Part shown: one piece after another, positions 35,721 to 62,195 of the stretch | How the letters are laid out: every line of letters starts with the position of its first letter | Position numbering within the stretch: the first letter of the stretch is position 1 | Assembly (NCBI GenBank): GCA_964536725.1 | Contig: CAZHYJ010000002.1 | Coordinates: forward strand, 27,219 to 91,218 | From: an uncultured Gammaproteobacteria bacterium | GTDB lineage: Bacteria > Patescibacteriota > Patescibacteriia > Magasanikbacterales > GWA2-37-8 | Direction of reading: 5' to 3' | Length of the DNA stretch: 64,000 nt | Position numbers and translations under genes: made by a program | The notes under the pieces: generated by a model | Seen by the model: only the letters and a program-made list of their open reading frames with translations | Told to the model about the DNA's origin: nothing | Database searches by the model: none

Positions 35721-35816
35721 TTTTTAAGCTTTTAAAAATTTAGTTGAAGGGTCGATTGTTCATGTCGACCAAGCGCGCTCATCAAAAACCTGATGAGTTG
35801 GTTTTGGTTGCTGGGT

Positions 35817-36194
35817 CTAGCAGCTGCGCTTCTCCGTGCGCAACTCCTCTGCTGGCAAGATCCAGAAAAGTACCTGGGTGACCATCAGGATGGTGGAAAC
35901 GATGTTGACCGTCTCTTCGGTGAACCATCCCGTGTACCGAAGCAGCAGAACCAGAATCGAGCAGAGGATGCAGTGGATGAAGCAGATCTTCGCGAAGAGC
36001 TTGAGATGGTCTGCTTTGTAGAAGATCCACCGGAACTCGTTGGTCGGACCGACCTCCATCCATCCGCCAGTCTTGAGGCACTTCCGCACACTCAGAAAGT
36101 GTACGATGAAGGCTAAGAAGCCCACAATCATCCCCTTGACCACCCAGTCGATGTTGCCGAAAAAGTCCAACATACGCCCCTCCCTCCCAACCAT
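35817..36194 (-). CDS. GC-rich foreign-looking small 3-TM membrane protein (125 aa).
   Basis: About 57% GC against about 38% background. Three predicted TM helices. Upstream AT-rich spacer with a terminator. Confidence 0.45.
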   Translation of the reverse strand: MVGREGRMLDFFGNIDWVVKGMIVGFLAFIVHFLSVRKCLKTGGWMEVGPTNEFRWIFYKADHLKLFAKICFIHCILCSILVLLLRYTGWFTEETVNIVSTILMVTQVLFWILPAEELRTEKRSC

Positions 36195-36441
36195 TTTTTA
36201 GTTGAACAACCGTTTTTCTTATATCGTATTTCAACAAAAATGTCAATGTGCTGTATTGTTTTTTTGGTGATGGTTTGAAAAAACAAAATCCGACTTTAGT
36301 AAGTCGGATTTTTGTATGTTATTCTGTCCGTGCTGCCGCAGAATTCAAATTTTAAATTCTATGGCAGGCACACGGACAGAAGGTTTTTCACTTCTTTGTC
36401 GTGCACCCGAAGTGGCGGGTGTGAGGGGTAGTGGGGGGGGG

Positions 36442-36846
36442 CTATCGCTTGTCCGGCACCTCGATGGGCACCAGGGGGTAGTGCCGGTACCCTTCCGGCG
36501 TCCAATCCAGTGCTCCAAGCGAGAATGACGTCCCTTCAGCTGGAACCTCTCGGAGTATTCCACCTCCGAAGGGGTCCAGCTTCGTGGCCTTCTGAACAGA
36601 CTGGACGTTCACTTTGAACGTCCACCCCGCGCCATTGCGCTTGGTGCGCATGACGCGCTCGTCCAGGCCGACGACCTTCCATGTGTCGCCGCTTCTCGCC
36701 TTGGCGAAGCGGAGGTCCTGGAAGTCGATGGTAAAGGGCGGATACCTCCTGGACAGCCACCTCCCAACGATGTTTCCGACCACGCACATGACCAAGAAAG
36801 ACACCCAGGCCCAAACACCTTCCAACATCGCAAAACTCCTCTGCAA
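36442..36846 (-). CDS. GC-rich foreign-looking membrane-anchored protein (134 aa).
   Basis: GGAGG SD 8 nt upstream. N-terminal TM VWAWVSFLVMCVVGNIVG. Codon usage unlike the surrounding genes. Confidence 0.45.
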   Translation of the reverse strand: MQRSFAMLEGVWAWVSFLVMCVVGNIVGRWLSRRYPPFTIDFQDLRFAKARSGDTWKVVGLDERVMRTKRNGAGWTFKVNVQSVQKATKLDPFGGGILREVPAEGTSFSLGALDWTPEGYRHYPLVPIEVPDKR

Positions 36847-37107
36847 CGGTTTTCTTCATCGGCGCACGTTACGCCAACAAATACTCACCGACCACGGGCT
36901 TGGGGAAAATCGTATTCCCGGCCTCGTTTTTGTTTTCTGTTTAAGAAGTCAAAAATGAGGCTAGGAAAACGTAATGTAAAGAACAAATTAACGTTTAAGT
37001 ATAGTACAAAAAAGCGGTTTTGTCAATGTACTTTTGCACTTTTTCTGCATCCCCACTTTTTCCCTTGTTTTAGCCATTTTTTCTGTGGATAACTATGGTA
37101 AAAAATG

Positions 37108-56403: not shown

Positions 56404-56973
56404 ATGCTAAAACGTTGGAAAAAAATTTCTTCACAACTTAAAGAGGATAATACCTTCTGGAAATATTCTTCGGATATTTTTGAACTGCCCAGTGGTGAAC
56501 GACAGGAATATTTTTATGGCGAGATTAATGACGGGGCATTAGTTGTGCCGGTATTAGACGATGGTCGGTTGGTGTTGGTAATGCAATATCGATATTTGCG
56601 CGACAAACAGAGTGTTGGTTTTCCCAAGGGAAGGTTGCTGAGTGGTGAATCCGCCCAGGTGGGAGCGGAACGAGAGATGCGTGAAGAAATTGGTTTTACT
56701 TCTTCCAATTTTGTTAAGACTGGTTCGTTTGACAGTTTAGATAGTCACTTCAAAGAAACGATGCATATATTTGTGGCGGATGAATTGTCGCAGGTGCCCA
56801 AACCACCAGCCGAAACCACAGAAGATGTTGAAGTGATTATTCGTCGGGTTGAAGAATTTGAAGAAATGATTCGCCGCGGTGAAATTTGGGATGGACACAC
56901 CTTGGCCGCTTGGACTTTGTCTCGTGAACAGGTGTTAAAAAAGATTTATGAACGACAGCAACAGCAAAGTTAA
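56404..56973 (+). CDS. NUDIX hydrolase.
   Basis: Nudix box GFPKGRLLSGESAQVGAEREMREEIGF. Confidence 0.8.
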   Translation: MLKRWKKISSQLKEDNTFWKYSSDIFELPSGERQEYFYGEINDGALVVPVLDDGRLVLVMQYRYLRDKQSVGFPKGRLLSGESAQVGAEREMREEIGFTSSNFVKTGSFDSLDSHFKETMHIFVADELSQVPKPPAETTEDVEVIIRRVEEFEEMIRRGEIWDGHTLAAWTLSREQVLKKIYERQQQQS

Positions 56974-57775
56974 GATTGCTTGGTGGGGGAAACATTTTGG
57001 TGAAGAGCCACCACTCGTGGGTAGTAAAGATCAAGGTGCAGGTGGAATGTTCTTTTCTGGCTGTAATTTGCGCTGTGTTTTTTGTCAGAACAAACAAATT
57101 TCTCAAGAAAATCTCGGTCGCGATTATTCAATTGAAGAATTGGTGGAAATGATGTTAGTGTTACAAAAGCGGGGAGCGGTAAATATCGATTTGGTTACGC
57201 CGACAATTTGGTGGCAACAAATTAAGGCGGCGATTATTTTAGCCAAAGAAAAAGGTTTAACCATTCCAATTGTCTGGAATTCCAATGGCTATGAAGCGGT
57301 GGAAATTTTGCAAGAGATGAAAGGGTTAGTGGATATTTATCTGCCTGATTTTAAATACAGTGACGACGAATTAGCGTGGAAATATTCGGGTATTAAAAAA
57401 TATTTGGCAGTAACAAAAAAAGCGATTGAAGAAATGTATTCTCAAGTTGGTTTGTTTAAAGAAAACAATGAGGTGGGGGAGAGTGGTTTGATTGTTCGCC
57501 ATATGGTGTTGCCAGGGGCGGTGGAAAACAGTTGTCGTGTGTTGGAAGAGTTGGCTAGTATCGATACGCGCATACATGTTGCCTTGATGAATCAATATTG
57601 TCCGTTGTATGGAGCCAAAGATTTTCCGGAGATTGATCGAACGATAACGACCGAAGAATATGAGCTGGTGTATAACAAACTATTGGAGCTAGGATTTACC
57701 AACGGTTGGGCGCAGGGGGAAGAGAGCCCAAATAACTTTGTACCGAATTTTAACAAACCAGATCCGTTTAATTAG
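56948..57775 (+). CDS. Radical SAM enzyme (AmmeMemoRadiSam-like, PflA-like activase fold).
   Basis: GCNLRCVFCQNKQIS = CxxxCxxC cluster motif. 26-nt overlap with the Nudix gene. Confidence 0.7.
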   Translation: MNDSNSKVKIAWWGKHFGEEPPLVGSKDQGAGGMFFSGCNLRCVFCQNKQISQENLGRDYSIEELVEMMLVLQKRGAVNIDLVTPTIWWQQIKAAIILAKEKGLTIPIVWNSNGYEAVEILQEMKGLVDIYLPDFKYSDDELAWKYSGIKKYLAVTKKAIEEMYSQVGLFKENNEVGESGLIVRHMVLPGAVENSCRVLEELASIDTRIHVALMNQYCPLYGAKDFPEIDRTITTEEYELVYNKLLELGFTNGWAQGEESPNNFVPNFNKPDPFN

Positions 57776-57815
57776 TTTTAGTGATTAAACAATAAAATTG
57801 TGGTATAATATTCTT

Positions 57816-59678
57816 ATGGAAGAAAATATCCCAACAAATCCTGTTTCGTCAGCGGCGGAACCAGAGCAATCCGATATTAACTATTTCGGGTTGGTTAACT
57901 ATCGCAACCAAAACCGTAAGTTCGGTATCAAGACTGATGATCGTCGCCGACATATGTATGTTGTCGGTAAAACCGGTATGGGTAAGACGACGATTTTGGA
58001 GAACATGGTTTTGAATGACATCTACGCCGGACACGGCGTTGGTTTGGTTGATCCGCACGGTGACTTTGCCGAAAAAATTATCGACTATATCCCAGCCAAT
58101 CGTATTAATGATGTGGTATATTTTAATCCGGCGGATATTGATTTCCCGATTGGTTTTAATATTTTGGAAACTGTTAAAGCCGAACACAAACATTTGGTAG
58201 CTTCCGGTTTGATGGGAGTATTTAAAAAGATCTGGCCAGATGTTTGGAGTTCGCGTATGGAATATATCTTAAACAACACTCTGTTGGCGTTGTTGGATTA
58301 TCCCGGTACGACTTTACTTGGTATCAATCGCTTGTTAGCGGATGCTGATTATCGCAAGCGGGTGGTGCACAATTTAAAAGATCCGGTAGTAAAAGCTTTT
58401 TGGCAAAATGAGTTTGCGGCTTACAATGATAAATATCGTCAGGAAGCCGTCGCGCCTATCCAAAACAAAATTGGTCAATTTCTGTCTGCTTCGGTTATCC
58501 GCAATATTGTGGCACAGGTCAAATCGCGAATTAACATTCGTGAAATCATGGATACACAAAAAATATTTATCATGAATCTTTCCAAAGGAAGAATAGGTGA
58601 AGATAATTCGCGCTTGCTCGGCGGCATGTTGATCACTAAAATTCAGTTGGCGGCGATGGAGCGCGTTGATATTCCAGAAAAAGATCGTAAAGATTTCTTC
58701 TTGTATGTTGATGAGTTTCAAAATTTCGCGACCGAAAGTTTTGCCAACATCCTATCTGAGGCGCGTAAATATCGTTTAGATTTAACCATGGCACATCAAT
58801 ACATGGAACAGTTGGATGAAATGGTGCTAGCGGCAGTTATCGGTAACGTTGGCAGTATTATCACTTTCCGAGTTGGTTCGACGGATGCGGAAATTTTAGC
58901 TAAAGAGTTTATCCCAACCTTCGTGGAAGAAGATTTGGTGAATTTACCAAAGTATCATATCTATCTTAAATTAATGATCGACGGTATCGCTTCACGGCCG
59001 TTTTCGGCTTTGACGTTGCCGCCAATTGCCAAGACGACTCACAGTGAAGAAAAAGTAGTTAAAGTTTCGCGCGAACGCTATGCAGTGCCACGGGCGAATA
59101 TCGAAGACAAGATCGCGCGTTGGAGTGGAATGGTAATTATCCCGGATGAGGACGCGAGTGAATTAGAAGTGGATGAAGACGAGGAGATGTTTGGAAAGAT
59201 GGAAAAAAAGGTGGAACCGAAGACAGAGTCGAAGGTGGAGAAAAAAATTCCGTTAGAGGTTAAGCCAACAGCAGAAAACAAACCAGAGCCTCGGATTGAA
59301 CCGGCGGTGGCGCAAGTGGTGCCAAAGCCAGTGGTGGTCGTACAGAGTGCTCCAATGCCACAGGTGAATCGAGGGTCCAATGGTTCTTCGTTTGGTAATC
59401 AAAACTCTCAATCTGCTGGCGGGGGTAACAGGAAAAAGAAAAAGAAGAAACACAATAATAATCCGGGAAGTGGGGCACCGGTATCTTTAGTTGATACTAA
59501 TCAAAAAGGGCTTTCATTGAGCAGTCTAAAACCCAAGCTTGGACCAGAGACAATTGGTCTACTGCCCAAAGAGCAGCACGAAAATCCGCCGATTGTAAGA
59601 TCGCAACCTTCCAACCAACAACCCCGTCAACCAATTACGATTTTACCGGATACTGTGAAGAAGGTAGAAGAAAATTAA
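57816..59678 (+). CDS. TraG/VirD4-family coupling-protein-like ATPase (DUF87/TraM-recognition type) with a Pro/Gly-rich C-terminal tail.
   Basis: Walker A VVGKTGMGKTT, the DPHGD motif characteristic of TrwB/VirD4-type ATPases, and Walker B LYVDEF. TGgTATAAT lies 6 nt upstream of the ATG, which implies a leaderless mRNA. Confidence 0.65.
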   Translation: MEENIPTNPVSSAAEPEQSDINYFGLVNYRNQNRKFGIKTDDRRRHMYVVGKTGMGKTTILENMVLNDIYAGHGVGLVDPHGDFAEKIIDYIPANRINDVVYFNPADIDFPIGFNILETVKAEHKHLVASGLMGVFKKIWPDVWSSRMEYILNNTLLALLDYPGTTLLGINRLLADADYRKRVVHNLKDPVVKAFWQNEFAAYNDKYRQEAVAPIQNKIGQFLSASVIRNIVAQVKSRINIREIMDTQKIFIMNLSKGRIGEDNSRLLGGMLITKIQLAAMERVDIPEKDRKDFFLYVDEFQNFATESFANILSEARKYRLDLTMAHQYMEQLDEMVLAAVIGNVGSIITFRVGSTDAEILAKEFIPTFVEEDLVNLPKYHIYLKLMIDGIASRPFSALTLPPIAKTTHSEEKVVKVSRERYAVPRANIEDKIARWSGMVIIPDEDASELEVDEDEEMFGKMEKKVEPKTESKVEKKIPLEVKPTAENKPEPRIEPAVAQVVPKPVVVVQSAPMPQVNRGSNGSSFGNQNSQSAGGGNRKKKKKKHNNNPGSGAPVSLVDTNQKGLSLSSLKPKLGPETIGLLPKEQHENPPIVRSQPSNQQPRQPITILPDTVKKVEEN

Positions 59679-59693: not shown

Positions 59694-60113
59694 ATGAGAT
59701 CCCTGATGCTGCATGTAAATAAATTCGCTGTTAATGTTGTAGAAGAATCTAAAAGGCCAAAGGGTATTAGTCCGGAAAAAAGAAAATCTGATTCTGAAGA
59801 AATGGGTCAGTGCCTTGTGGTATTTTTTTGTGTAGAAGAAGGCGACAGTAAAAAGCAGGTTGAAAAGATGTTTAAAGAAATTTTAAAGACTACTGACGAA
59901 GTTAAAACAAAAAAAATAATGATCTCTCCTTTTGTCCACTTGTCAAAAAATATTGCCAAACCAGAAGTAGCCAAGGATCTTTATGAGAAACTTGTAGAGA
60001 AATTTGTCGGTTTGGATTTTGTAGTCAAGTCATCGCACTTTGGTTATCACAAAAGTTTACTGCTTGATATTAAAGGATATCCCGGGTCGTTTCGTTATCG
60101 AGAGTTTTATTAA
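59694..60113 (+). CDS. Standalone archaeal-type threonyl-tRNA synthetase editing domain homologue (tRNA-Thr_ED, DTD-like fold).
   Basis: Similarity recalled from memory to the Pyrococcus ThrRS N-terminal editing domain: MRxLLxH start, VVFxxVEE, SPFxHLSxxxAKP, FGYxK. Confidence 0.55.
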   Translation: MRSLMLHVNKFAVNVVEESKRPKGISPEKRKSDSEEMGQCLVVFFCVEEGDSKKQVEKMFKEILKTTDEVKTKKIMISPFVHLSKNIAKPEVAKDLYEKLVEKFVGLDFVVKSSHFGYHKSLLLDIKGYPGSFRYREFY

Positions 60114-60681: not shown

Positions 60682-61662
60682 ATGCCCAAAACATCCCACA
60701 TAAAATTTTTCAAAAACATTTCCAAAAGTGATGTTAATATTGCTGGTGGCAAGGGGGCATCACTCGGTGAAATGACCCAAGCAAAAATTCCGGTGCCCAA
60801 TGGTTTTGTAATTTTAGCGGCGGCCTTTGATCGGTTTTTGGAAGAGACACAATTAAAAGAGGAGATTGCAGCACGTTTAGCAGCAGTCAATCCAGACGAT
60901 GCCAACTCGGTGGATAAGGCGAGCAATGTTATCCGCGATGCGATTCACGATCGATCCATGCCTAAAGATTTGGAAAAAGAAATTTTGGCAGGATTTGCAA
61001 AATTGGACACTAAATTTGTTGCGGTGCGTTCATCGGCTACGGCTGAGGATTCGTCGGTGGCCAGTTGGGCAGGGGAGTTGGAGAGTTATTTAAATACCGA
61101 TAAAAAGAATTTGATTGAACGGGTGCGTCGTTGTTGGTCTTCGCTCTATACCCCGCGGGCCATTTTTTATCGTTACGAAAAAGGGTTGATTGATCACTAT
61201 GTTTCAGTCGCGGTGGTGATACAAAAAATGGTACAGTCAGAAATTTCCGGTATTGCTTTTACCGTTCATCCGGTGACGGAGGATTATGATCAGATGATTA
61301 TTGAAGCGGGATATGGGCTGGGTGAAGCGATTGTATCGGGACAAATCACTCCAGACAGTTATGTGATTAGTAAAAGCAGTATGTCGATTGTGGACACTTA
61401 TGTTAGTTCGCAAACGCGACAGCTGATTCGTAAAAAATCTGCCCAGAGCAAAGGAGACAAAGAAAACGCCTCCAATGAATGGGTGGAGTTAGGTAAAAAA
61501 GGTGAAAAACAAAAAGTGGAAAACAAAAAAGTTTTAGCTTTGGCGAAAGTGTTTAAAAGAATTGAAGATCATTACAAGTTCCCTTGTGATATCGAATGGG
61601 CAATGGAAAAAGGGAAAATATATATTACCCAAAGTAGGCCGATTACTACTTTAAGTAAGTAG
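60682..61662 (+). CDS. Standalone PEP-utilising-enzyme N-terminal nucleotide-binding domain protein (PPDK_N, as in PEP synthase/PPDK/rifampin phosphotransferase).
   Basis: NIAGGKGASLGEM...VAVRSSATAEDSSVASWAGELESYLN motifs. There are no swivel or PEP-binding domains downstream, so it is truncated relative to PpsA. Confidence 0.7.
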   Translation: MPKTSHIKFFKNISKSDVNIAGGKGASLGEMTQAKIPVPNGFVILAAAFDRFLEETQLKEEIAARLAAVNPDDANSVDKASNVIRDAIHDRSMPKDLEKEILAGFAKLDTKFVAVRSSATAEDSSVASWAGELESYLNTDKKNLIERVRRCWSSLYTPRAIFYRYEKGLIDHYVSVAVVIQKMVQSEISGIAFTVHPVTEDYDQMIIEAGYGLGEAIVSGQITPDSYVISKSSMSIVDTYVSSQTRQLIRKKSAQSKGDKENASNEWVELGKKGEKQKVENKKVLALAKVFKRIEDHYKFPCDIEWAMEKGKIYITQSRPITTLSK

Positions 61663-61865: not shown

Positions 61866-62195
61866 ATGGCTTTTGGTACTGACAGACAAATGTTTGATGT
61901 TGATCTTACCTGCGCTAAATGCGGGGCTCACATCTCTCAGTTGCCTTTTCAACCATCTGGTGATCGACCGGTTTACTGCTCTGACTGCAACCGTGCTTTC
62001 CGCCAGAATCGTCCTGACGATCGTGGTAGCCGTGGTGGTAGTTTTGGTGGACGCTCAGCTGGCCCTCGCCAGATGTTCAGCGTTAACCTAAGCTGCGCTT
62101 CCTGCGGAACTGCGATTACCCAATTACCTTTCCAGCCAACTGGCGATAAACCAGTTTACTGCCGAGAGTGTATGCAGGCTCGTCGTAACGACTAA
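61866..62195 (+). CDS. Tandem zinc-ribbon protein (two zf-trcl-like CxxC...C..C repeats).
   Basis: Two copies of CxxCGxxIxQLPFQPxGDxPVYCxxC. The promoter TGcTATAAT sits about 140 nt upstream and a terminator follows at about 62215-62240. Confidence 0.6.
   Translation: MAFGTDRQMFDVDLTCAKCGAHISQLPFQPSGDRPVYCSDCNRAFRQNRPDDRGSRGGSFGGRSAGPRQMFSVNLSCASCGTAITQLPFQPTGDKPVYCRECMQARRND

What the first reader, a model, noticed from the sequence alone, without database searches (positions are those of the whole stretch)
59694..60113. Free-standing archaeal-type ThrRS editing domain in a bacterial (CPR) genome
The 139-aa protein matches, block by block, the N-terminal editing domain of archaeal threonyl-tRNA synthetases. 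I recalled the Pyrococcus sequence MRVLLIHSDY...VLVAFISVE...VFVYPFAHLSSELAKP...FGYYK from memory. In some Crenarchaeota this domain exists as a separate trans-editing protein. A stand-alone copy in a bacterium suggests inter-domain transfer and a trans-acting Ser-tRNA(Thr) or D-aminoacyl-tRNA deacylase.
Basis: partly seen in the sequence, partly recalled or inferred. Interest (0 to 1): 0.55.

Follow-up and report, generated by a model that had tools for sequence, protein, structure and literature searches.

The report
Stand-alone archaeal-type tRNA editing protein
A small gene in a CPR bacterium encodes a free-standing copy of the proofreading domain that archaea normally carry on their threonyl-tRNA synthetase; this protein group is already annotated and was noted in a 2017 paper, it is shared with DPANN archaea, and its real substrate has never been tested.

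Summary
ORF 59694..60113 (+) encodes a 139-aa protein that matches Pfam PF08915 (tRNA-Thr_ED) over its full length (92.8 bits, cutoff 30.2). Its model superposes on the P. abyssi, M. jannaschii and A. pernix ThrRS editing domains (TM ~0.9). The host is a CPR bacterium: LepA is 77-80% identical to Patescibacteria/Magasanikbacteria. It is not new. NCBI already names relatives "threonyl-tRNA synthetase editing domain-containing protein". Mukai et al. 2017 described stand-alone "tRNA-Thr-ED" homologs as widespread in prokaryotes, and their dataset holds a member of this exact subfamily. New here: the subfamily is rare (19 of ~185,000 species genomes) and under strong purifying selection (dN/dS 0.07-0.17). 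It is interleaved between CPR bacteria and verified DPANN archaeal contigs (window vs archaeal copies 69-70% identical), and an integrase gene often lies nearby. It keeps the His and Lys needed in the archaeal domain, but replaces the two side chains that contact the amino acid (Tyr120 to His, Glu134 to Phe) and has an invariant GSFRYREF C-terminus. It is most likely a trans-acting aminoacyl-tRNA deacylase. Ser-tRNA(Thr) is only one candidate substrate. I could not examine this genome's thrS.

The parts
59694..60113 (+). Gene for a 139-aa stand-alone tRNA-Thr_ED (archaeal ThrRS N-terminal editing domain-like, DTD-like fold) protein
   Evidence: ORF. PF08915 92.8 bits, full length. PDB sequence matches. 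AF2 pLDDT 95.2. Foldseek TM ~0.9 to PabNTD, MjNTD and ApNTD. 119 stand-alone relatives of about 139 aa.
59928..59945 (+). P79-F80-V81-H82-L83-S84 motif, equivalent to Pro80-Phe81-Ala82-His83 of P. abyssi NTD (active-site wall; the His positions the substrate carbonyl)
   Evidence: Alignment to 1y2q. P79, F80, H82 and S84 are invariant in 60 family members. Residue roles from PMC4491819.
60039..60053 (+). F116-G117-Y118-H119-K120 motif, equivalent to Phe117-Gly118-Tyr119-Tyr120-Lys121 of PabNTD. Lys is retained; Tyr120 is replaced by His.
   Evidence: G117 and K120 invariant; H119 in at least 90%. In PabNTD the main chain of this segment discriminates Ser from Thr, and Lys121 positions the catalytic water (PMC4491819).
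60072..60110 (+). C-terminal K127-G-Y-P-G-S-F133-R-Y-R-E-F-Y139: the subfamily signature KG[HY]PGSFRYREF. Phe133 occupies the position of cross-subunit Glu134 of PabNTD. The window protein has Tyr129 where at least 90% of relatives have His.
   Evidence: G128, R134, R136 and F138 invariant. Gapless extension of the HMMER alignment beyond residue 131 is my inference. Loss of the equivalent Glu in stand-alone homologs was also noted by Mukai 2017 Text S1.

Best explanation
The gene encodes a functional, free-standing enzyme of the archaeal ThrRS editing-domain type (NTD, DTD-like fold). It most likely works in trans as an aminoacyl-tRNA deacylase. By analogy with the solved NTDs, a homodimer would bind only the 3'-terminal aminoacyl-adenosine of a charged tRNA and hydrolyse the ester bond. 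A water positioned by the conserved Lys would act, with catalysis assisted by the 2'-OH of A76. It has no anticodon-binding domain, so it could read at most the acceptor end or the discriminator base. Small L-aminoacyl groups (Ser, possibly Gly) are the most likely substrates, because in the archaeal domain main-chain atoms of the retained FGxxK segment exclude Thr and larger residues. Which tRNA it serves in the cell (tRNA-Thr, tRNA-Ala, tRNA-Cys or others) is not known. The window protein belongs to a tight subfamily that is a rare accessory gene, is under strong purifying selection, and has been exchanged between CPR bacteria and DPANN archaea. Shown: identity, fold, stand-alone state, conservation, distribution. 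Inferred: dimer, chemistry, substrate.
For: Family and fold. Residues needed in PabNTD/ApNTD are kept: His82 and Lys120 are invariant, and PF.H and FG..K are intact (roles from PMC4491819). Y120A/E134A mutants of the archaeal domains remain active and Ser-specific (PMC4491819), so the Tyr-to-His and Glu-to-Phe changes need not abolish that chemistry. The isolated archaeal domain is active in trans in vitro (same paper). Purifying selection: dN/dS 0.07-0.17 in 10 gene pairs, and mean column identity is 65% over 60 sequences. Stand-alone architecture is the rule: 119 relatives, nearly all 134-145 aa, and most of the best 150 of 885 profile hits are 135-190 aa. Cross-domain sharing. Accessory and mobile character: only 19 loci in ~185,000 species genomes; a tyrosine recombinase lies within 5 kb in 7 of 52 unique loci and is directly adjacent in at least 5; in the window a VirD4/TraG-like ATPase is directly upstream and GC is slightly lower (35-36% vs 41%).
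Against: No activity has been measured for any member of this subfamily (no paper found). Both side chains that contact the amino-acid moiety in archaeal NTDs, and that are completely conserved there, are replaced by residues that are themselves conserved (His119, Phe133). Together with the invariant GSFRYREF tail, this pattern suggests a changed specificity rather than drift. Loss of the Glu that holds the alpha-amino group led Mukai et al. to suggest even hydroxyacyl-tRNA substrates. Gene neighbourhood gives no functional partner. No thrS or dtd occurs in 746 kb around 52 unique loci. aaRS genes are directly adjacent in only 3 of ~95 neighbour slots, against ~2 expected by chance. The dimer and the placement of the C-terminal tail were not modelled.
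Confidence: 0.6

Rival explanations
1. It is the trans-editing half of a split ThrRS system, as in Crenarchaeota. The CPR host's ThrRS would lack or have lost a working N2 editing domain, and this protein would clear Ser-tRNA(Thr).
For: It is homologous to the domain that does exactly this job in archaea. The isolated domain is active on Ser-tRNA(Thr), including E. coli tRNA-Thr, in vitro (PMC4491819). CPR synthetases can be trimmed: the ProRS in locus L053 is only 419 aa and matches bacterial ProRS models in two pieces, meaning it has no INS editing domain.
Against: The gene is present in only ~0.01% of species genomes and in a tiny fraction of CPR species spread over several classes. That is not expected for a housekeeping complement. 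It is never next to thrS in 52 unique loci. It lacks the anticodon-binding domain that all known Ser-tRNA(Thr) trans-editors carry (Mukai Text S1). Other stand-alone paralogs occur in methanogens, whose ThrRS has the domain in cis (established knowledge; SYT_METJA-type sequences). So stand-alone copies in general are not ThrRS complements. In the tree the subfamily branches with other stand-alone subfamilies, not inside the ThrRS-fused domains (NJ only).
Confidence: 0.2
2. It is a deacylase with a substrate other than Ser-tRNA(Thr). Candidates are another mischarged tRNA selected through the discriminator base (e.g. U73 tRNAs such as tRNA-Cys or tRNA-Gly), or an acyl group lacking a free alpha-amino group (hydroxyacyl, N-blocked, or a non-protein amino acid). 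On this view it is kept as a niche-specific protective accessory gene, comparable in logic to canavanyl-tRNA deacylase CtdA.
For: The Glu that binds the alpha-NH2 is replaced by an invariant or near-invariant Phe, and Tyr120 by His. There is a new invariant C-terminal tail. Mukai et al. proposed aminoacyl- or hydroxyacyl-tRNA substrates for such homologs, and Ser-tRNA(Cys) for the SepCysS-linked ones. The NTD alone is reported to read U73 (PMC8762117). The two CPR tRNA-Gly genes in my loci have U73. In one locus the gene follows cysS by 4 nt. The distribution is rare, patchy and integrase-associated, as for an accessory resistance-type gene.
Against: There is no direct evidence for any particular substrate. 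The cysS adjacency is a single case. Ala substitutions at the same two positions in the archaeal enzymes did not change specificity.
Confidence: 0.25
3. It substitutes for D-aminoacyl-tRNA deacylase (DTD) as the chiral proofreader in a reduced genome.
For: It has the same fold as DTD, gives weak Pfam and TIGRFAM DTD matches, and is a stand-alone ~140-aa protein like DTD.
Against: The DTD signatures are absent: PFVHLS replaces SQFTL, and KGYPGS replaces the NxGPxT Gly-cisPro motif that enforces chiral selectivity (sequence; motif from PMC5802732 abstract). TIGR00256 scores 19.6 bits against a cutoff of 101.5. The fold match to DTD (TM ~0.7, E~1e-6) is much weaker than the match to NTD. The gene's rarity in CPR argues against a universal housekeeping role. 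One archaeal genome with a sister stand-alone paralog already encodes DTD2 3 kb away.
Confidence: 0.07
4. It is a non-functional remnant of a transferred archaeal thrS fragment, or a mis-called ORF.
For: It corresponds to only the first domain of a multidomain enzyme and lies in a region of slightly lower GC.
Against: The ORF is intact, with conserved start and stop positions across more than 100 clusters. dN/dS is 0.07-0.17. The predicted fold is highly confident. No thrS-like sequence follows it.
Confidence: 0.03

Closest known systems
[quoted passage not shown] Pyrococcus abyssi (PDB 1Y2Q, 2HL1), M. jannaschii (4RRF), A. pernix ThrRS-2 (4RR6); Pfam PF08915
   Same: Same Pfam family over its full length, and the same DTD-like fold (TM ~0.9, rmsd 1.5-2 A). 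The PF(A/V)HLS and FG(Y/W)xK motifs are retained, with the functionally required His and Lys, as is KG(H/Y)P.
   Different: It is not fused to a synthetase. It is only ~29-30% identical. Tyr120 becomes His and cross-subunit Glu134 becomes Phe. A distinct invariant GSFRYREF C-terminus replaces the LSELSR linker. The host is a bacterium.
Stand-alone 'tRNA-Thr-ED' homologs described by Mukai et al. 2017 (mBio 8:e00561-17, Text S1, Fig. S4, Data Set S1) and mentioned in Mukai et al. 2022 (Front Genet 12:794509)
   Same: This is the group the window protein belongs to: small proteins made only of the editing domain, with no anticodon-binding domain and with the Glu that selects the amino acid not conserved. 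Their dataset contains EKD43573.1 (ACD_72C00217G0002, uncultured bacterium), which is 58% identical to the window protein and carries the same SPFVHLS, FGYHK and KGHPGSFRYREFY motifs.
   Different: Their analysis centred on the SepCysS-linked archaeal clades (methanogens, MSBL1/Hadesarchaea). The CPR/DPANN subfamily was only one sequence in a supplementary tree. Its sharing between CPR and DPANN, its rarity, its integrase association and its selection regime were not described. No SepRS or SepCysS genes lie near the window gene.
Crenarchaeal ThrRS-ed / Ser-tRNA(Thr) hydrolase (Korencic et al. 2004; NCBIfam NF011500)
   Same: It is a trans-acting use of the same editing domain, separated from the aminoacylating enzyme.
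   Different: ThrRS-ed is ~390 aa and keeps an anticodon-binding domain for tRNA-Thr recognition, and it co-occurs with an editing-less ThrRS-cat. The window protein is the bare 139-aa domain (67.7 bits against a cutoff of 362), and its partner ThrRS is unknown.
D-aminoacyl-tRNA deacylase DTD (PF02580) and its animal paralog ATD
   Same: It has the same fold, is a free-standing ~145-aa protein, and acts (or is expected to act) on the aminoacyl-A76 end without anticodon recognition.
   Different: It has no SQFTL motif and no Gly-cisPro or Gly-transPro motif. It is much closer to NTD than to DTD in both sequence and structure.

Membership tests
Pfam PF08915 tRNA-Thr_ED (archaeal ThrRS editing domain, NTD) | Profile match above the curated gathering score over the whole domain | tested here: met
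   92.8 bits against a cutoff of 30.2; residues 1-136 on profile positions 1-135 of 137
Pfam PF08915 tRNA-Thr_ED (archaeal ThrRS editing domain, NTD) | DTD-like fold that is closest to solved NTD structures | tested here: met
   AF2 pLDDT 95.2. Foldseek TM 0.84-0.91 to PabNTD, MjNTD and ApNTD, with DTD at ~0.7.
Pfam PF08915 tRNA-Thr_ED (archaeal ThrRS editing domain, NTD) | Functionally required His83 and Lys121 (PabNTD numbering) within the PFAH and FGYYK motifs | tested here: met
   His82 and Lys120 are present and invariant in 60 relatives. Roles from PMC4491819.
Pfam PF08915 tRNA-Thr_ED (archaeal ThrRS editing domain, NTD) | Completely conserved amino-acid-pocket side chains Tyr120 and cross-subunit Glu134 | tested here: not met
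   His119 and Phe133 occupy these positions and are conserved in the subfamily. The Glu134 equivalence beyond alignment residue 131 is a gapless extension (inference), consistent with Mukai Text S1.
Pfam PF08915 tRNA-Thr_ED (archaeal ThrRS editing domain, NTD) | Hydrolysis of L-Ser-tRNA(Thr) but not L-Thr-tRNA(Thr) | not testable with these tools
   Needs biochemistry. No published assay for this subfamily was found.
Full-length archaeal ThrRS (NCBIfam NF003068) | Editing domain fused to class II catalytic and anticodon-binding domains (~610-640 aa) | tested here: not met
   The protein is 139 aa with a stop codon. It scores 91.7 bits against a cutoff of 484, and only model positions 1-132 are matched.
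Crenarchaeal ThrRS-ed / Ser-tRNA(Thr) hydrolase (NCBIfam NF011500) | Editing domain plus C-terminal anticodon-binding domain (~390 aa) | tested here: not met
   67.7 bits against a cutoff of 362; model positions 3-127 of 387 only
Crenarchaeal ThrRS-ed / Ser-tRNA(Thr) hydrolase (NCBIfam NF011500) | Co-occurrence with an editing-deficient ThrRS-cat in the same genome | not testable with these tools
   There is no thrS in the window or in 746 kb of related loci.
D-aminoacyl-tRNA deacylase DTD (PF02580 / TIGR00256) | Equivalog-level profile match and the SQFTL and NxGPxT (Gly-cisPro) motifs | tested here: not met
   TIGR00256 scores 19.6 bits against a cutoff of 101.5. PF02580 scores 29.9 bits from two short stretches only. 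The motifs read PFVHLS and KGYPGS, compared with E. coli DTD SQFTL and NDGPVT.
Stand-alone tRNA-Thr-ED homologs (Mukai et al. 2017) | Protein consisting only of the editing domain, with no anticodon-binding domain | tested here: met
   139 aa, a single PF08915 domain. Definition in Text S1.
Stand-alone tRNA-Thr-ED homologs (Mukai et al. 2017) | Adenosine and aminoacyl contact residues conserved, except the Glu135 (MjNTD) position | tested here: met
   Phe133 is at that position, and the other motifs are retained
Stand-alone tRNA-Thr-ED homologs (Mukai et al. 2017) | Close relative present in the published dataset | tested here: met
   EKD43573.1 in Data Set S1 is P0097, 58% identical over 100% of the query

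The most novel reading that the evidence does not exclude
The SPFVHLS / FGYHK / GSFRYREF subfamily is not a Ser-tRNA(Thr) editor. Instead it is a distinct trans-acting deacylase with a new substrate, for example an acyl-tRNA lacking a free alpha-amino group, or a non-protein amino acid. It would have been repeatedly exchanged between CPR bacteria and DPANN archaea as an integrase-associated accessory gene. That would make it a rare case of a translation quality-control factor moving recently between the two domains of ultra-small symbionts.
Probability: 0.22. Interest if true: 0.6.

Novelty: new member of a known kind. Interest (0 to 1): 0.3.

Why it matters
As it stands, this is a correct annotation of a protein group that databases already name and that a 2017 paper already catalogued, so it does not change what is known. 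Its residual value is as a pointer. The stand-alone archaeal-type editing domains are numerous: 885 cluster representatives in the profile search, most of the best ones being stand-alone. They have diversified into several motif subfamilies, and none has been characterised biochemically. The CPR/DPANN subfamily is a tractable test case. It is a 139-aa protein with a high-confidence model, strong purifying selection and two specific active-site substitutions. If its substrate differs from Ser-tRNA(Thr), it would add a new trans-editing activity. The 69-70% identity between copies in a bacterial and an archaeal genome documents recent inter-domain gene flow between CPR and DPANN organisms.

Tried and rejected
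1. Looking for thrS near the gene. tblastn with E. coli ThrRS against the window plus 70 loci (746 kb) found none. The only weak hit (L053) is a 419-aa ProRS.

2. Looking for dtd in the same loci: none. This is uninformative, because dtd is one gene per genome.

3. Getting a CPR ThrRS from the protein database. I abandoned this because the tool scores only the 8000 candidates sharing the most words with the query and lists the best 120 (seen). An E. coli ThrRS query could therefore only return enterobacterial sequences, and no CPR seed was available. One search was left unused.

4. A conserved operon partner. The 146-aa downstream ORF occurs only in the window and its identical Logan contig. 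A suspected NTD-gatA-gatB operon in L007 was wrong, because the middle gene is a sugar transferase. aaRS adjacency (CysRS, LysRS, TyrRS) is at chance level.

5. A Rosetta-stone link to the window's radical SAM gene via P0201 (NTD fused to radical SAM). I rejected this because only the CxxxCxxC motif is shared (E=0.038) and P0201's NTD belongs to a different, archaeal subfamily.

6. A virus or plasmid vector: no relatives in IMG/VR, GenBank phages or PLSDB plasmids.

7. tRNA discriminator analysis: there are no tRNA-Thr or tRNA-Cys genes in any locus. The two tRNA-Gly genes found have U73.

8. A simple 'archaeal at the base, CPR in the crown' tree. I rejected this because verified archaeal contigs (L043/L039) fall inside the high-identity crown and a bacterial contig (L063) is near the base. 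The tree is neighbour-joining without support values.

9. Confirming that L042/L010 (Vogelbacteria label; 83-85% identical to the archaeal L043/L039 copies) is bacterial from its own genes. Its neighbours are not domain-diagnostic, so I do not rely on that pair.
Full report
**The observation.** ORF 59694..60113 (+) has an ATG start and a TAA stop and encodes 139 aa. [quoted passage not shown] The match runs over essentially the whole protein and the whole profile. NCBIfam aligns it only to the first ~132 positions of the archaeal ThrRS model and of the Ser-tRNA(Thr) hydrolase model, far below their whole-protein cutoffs. Its best solved relatives by sequence are the editing domains of P. abyssi ThrRS (E~5e-16), A. 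pernix ThrRS-2 and M. jannaschii ThrRS. An AlphaFold2 model built on 60 relatives has pLDDT 95.2. It superposes on those three crystal structures with TM 0.84-0.91 and rmsd 1.5-2.3 A, whereas bacterial and eukaryotic DTD come second at TM ~0.7. The protein is free-standing. The upstream gene, a VirD4/TraG/TrwB-like ATPase, ends 15 nt before it. The ORF that starts 12 nt after it has no family match.

**The host.** The window (41% GC) encodes bacterial-only functions: ribosomal proteins L9 and L21, MurA, MraY, MurJ, DnaB, RecR, MraZ/RsmH, an ECF-type sigma factor, and HrcA-GrpE-DnaK-DnaJ. Its LepA is 77-80% identical to proteins that NCBI names 'Patescibacteria group bacterium' and, repeatedly, 'Candidatus Magasanikbacteria'. 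'Bacterial (CPR)' is therefore correct. The window has no tRNA gene, no Rfam family at gathering score, and no thrS.

**The family.**
- A word-indexed search found 119 relatives at 48-99% identity. Nearly all are 134-145 aa, and some are already named by NCBI 'threonyl-tRNA synthetase editing domain-containing protein [Patescibacteria group bacterium]'.
- Sixty of them align with 65% mean column identity. The invariant residues are S19, P22, E48, D51, E62, P79, F80, H82, S84, G117, K120, G128, R134, R136 and F138, and the signature C-terminus is KG[HY]PGSFRYREF.
- An exhaustive profile search of 1.84 billion cluster representatives found 885 hits at E<=1e-3 but only 9 at E<=1e-30, so the window's subfamily is tight.
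- Most of the best 150 hits are themselves stand-alone proteins of 135-190 aa belonging to other motif subfamilies (FGSDK...RFREF, FGTHK...SYFEF, FGYHK...VAFRSIP, FGWYK...IFREY). Full-length ThrRS (567-643 aa) and ~400-aa forms appear only from E~1e-20.
- In a neighbour-joining tree the window's subfamily groups with other stand-alone subfamilies, not inside the ThrRS-fused domains (no support values). Two of those sister subfamilies lie on archaeal contigs.

**Prior art.** Mukai et al. 2017 (mBio, PMC5424206) defined stand-alone 'tRNA-Thr-ED' proteins. They stated that these are widely distributed among prokaryotes, lack the anticodon-binding domain of all previously known Ser-tRNA(Thr) editors, and conserve the aminoacyl-adenosine contacts except the Glu135 (MjNTD) position. 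They suggested that the proteins hydrolyse aminoacyl- or hydroxyacyl-tRNAs. Their Data Set S1 contains EKD43573.1 from an aquifer CPR bin. This is my P0097 (58% identical) and has the same SPFVHLS, FGYHK and KGHPGSFRYREFY motifs. The dataset also holds other bacterial stand-alone groups, from Bacteroidales, Deltaproteobacteria, Nitrospira, Thermodesulfatator and Microgenomates. A 2022 review by the same group adds that the isolated domain can discriminate tRNAs through U73, and that bacteria, unlike archaea, have U73 in tRNA-Gly (PMC8762117). I found no biochemical study of any stand-alone bacterial member. So an 'archaea-specific' editing domain standing alone in a bacterium, including a CPR bacterium, is already on record. 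Only its function is open.

**Distribution and transfer.**
- A scan of one genome per species (~185,000) with three subfamily peptide patterns returned only 19 loci. They carry labels from several CPR classes (Vogel-, Falkow-, Berkel-, Magasanik-, Kuenenbacteria, Paceibacterota), from Woesearchaeota and Undinarchaeota, and some unreliable automatic labels. A metagenome scan added 46 loci.
- I checked the domain of origin from neighbouring genes. L017 and L018 are archaeal (Nre, GatD, GatE-type subunit, deoxyhypusine synthase, ATP-dependent DNA ligase with the archaeal N-domain). L043, and the syntenic L039, are archaeal (replication factor C large subunit at 358.6 bits against a cutoff of 280, archaeal-type ValRS, dimeric GlyRS). 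L063 is bacterial (RNase J with its bacterial C-terminal domain, SBP_bac_5, PnuC).
- The window protein is 56% identical to the L017 copy and 69-70% identical to the L043/L039 copies, compared with ~29-30% to ThrRS editing domains. Archaeal and bacterial copies are interleaved in the tree.
- A contig labelled Vogelbacteria (L010 = L042) carries a copy 83-85% identical to the archaeal L043/L039 copies. Its own neighbours are not domain-diagnostic, so I treat that pair as suggestive only.
- Close gene pairs have dN/dS of 0.07-0.17, so the gene is under strong purifying selection wherever it sits.

**Gene context.**
- Among 52 unique loci, the commonest neighbour family is a tyrosine recombinase (Phage_integrase). 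It lies within 5 kb in 7 loci and is directly adjacent in at least 5.
- In the window, the gene follows a VirD4/TraG-like ATPase, and the gene plus the next ORF have 35-36% GC against 41% overall.
- No relatives occur in IMG/VR, GenBank phages or PLSDB plasmids.
- Together this describes a rare, patchy accessory gene that has moved between CPR bacteria and DPANN archaea more than once. The direction of transfer is not resolved.

**Mechanism.** In PabNTD the side chains within 6 A of the scissile bond are Pro80, Phe81, Ala82, His83, Tyr120 and Lys121, plus Glu134 from the other subunit. H83A and K121M impair activity by mispositioning the substrate or the water. Y120A/E134A mutants remain active and still reject Thr, because discrimination rests on main-chain atoms of residues 117-121. 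Catalysis uses the 2'-OH of A76. The isolated domains also deacylate Gly-tRNA(Gly) (PMC4491819). The window protein has Pro79, Phe80, Val81, His82, His119 and Lys120, and, by gapless extension of the alignment, Phe133 at the Glu134 position. So the scaffold and the two functionally required residues are kept. The two residues that touch the amino-acid moiety are replaced by residues that are themselves conserved, and a new invariant tail is added.

My best reading (confidence 0.6) is a trans-acting aminoacyl-tRNA deacylase with NTD-type chemistry that recognises only the acceptor end. Ser (or Gly) on a non-cognate tRNA is the most conservative substrate guess. The specific 'split ThrRS' scenario gets 0.2, because of three points: the gene is rare within CPR, it is never linked to thrS in 746 kb of context, and stand-alone paralogs also exist in archaea whose ThrRS edits in cis. 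A changed substrate gets 0.25. A DTD substitute gets 0.07, because the DTD motifs are absent. A remnant gets 0.03.

**What could not be done.** It needs the rest of the genome, which these tools did not expose.

**Verdict.** The protein is a new member of a known, already annotated but biochemically uncharacterised kind. Interest is 0.3. The residual interest lies in the unresolved substrate and in the clear CPR-DPANN gene sharing.

Noticed in passing
window 35750-36950: Two GC-rich islands (53-59% GC against a 41% window mean) lie in the 1.5-kb gap between a beta-CASP/metallo-beta-lactamase gene and mraZ. No Rfam family matches. MFE z-scores are about -4 on both strands for 36330-36960. The islands contain minus-strand ORFs 35817..36194 (125 aa, hydrophobic) and 36442..36846 (134 aa, N-terminal TM-like). 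They look more like foreign small membrane-protein genes than an RNA.
   Followed up: partly
window 57798-59678 (+): A VirD4/TraG/TrwB-like coupling ATPase (626 aa) with a ~190-aa low-complexity Lys/Pro/Glu/Gln-rich C-terminal tail lies immediately upstream of the editing-domain gene, with a 15-nt gap. A 42%-identical homolog lies 7 kb from the editing-domain gene in locus L030.
   Followed up: partly
window 60682-61662 (+); L052 645-1718; L012 6478-7488; L072 1217-1522: A protein made only of the PPDK_N (ATP-grasp-like nucleotide-binding) domain of pyruvate phosphate dikinase recurs within a few kb of the editing-domain gene in four lineages. It is directly downstream in L052 and L072. This could be lineage synteny or a functional link.
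   Followed up: partly
window 61866-62195 (+): A 109-aa protein has two tandem zf_Tbcl_2 treble-clef zinc-finger domains (PF23477, E=2.2e-28) separated by a Gly/Arg/Ser-rich linker.
   Followed up: no
L053 2768-4027: The CPR ProRS is only 419 aa and matches bacterial ProRS models in two pieces, meaning it lacks the INS editing domain. In the same locus the editing-domain gene follows lysS by 3 nt.
   Followed up: partly
L006, L031, L042/L010, L044, L046, L047, L049 (next to the editing-domain gene): A tyrosine recombinase (Phage_integrase plus SAM-like N-domain, ~270-297 aa) lies beside or near the gene in 7 of 52 unique loci, usually divergently oriented 90-280 bp away. I did not search for att-like repeats there.
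   Followed up: partly
P0201 (502 aa, metagenomic protein): An editing-domain paralog of the archaeal FGTHK...SYFEY subfamily is fused to a radical SAM domain with a Cys-rich C-terminus. This is an architecture I have not seen described. It is unrelated to the window's radical SAM gene 56948..57775.
   Followed up: partly
L075 2477-3268 and 6052-6474: An archaeal contig encodes DTD2 (PF04414) 3 kb from a stand-alone editing-domain paralog. So in that organism the paralog is not simply the D-aminoacyl-tRNA deacylase.
   Followed up: no
L008 and L009 (same MAG, CAZFDH01, labelled Woesearchaeota): One MAG carries two copies of the gene on two contigs (75% and 71% identical to the window protein), each next to an N6-adenine methyltransferase / restriction-modification gene. 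The domain of origin of these contigs is unresolved.
   Followed up: partly
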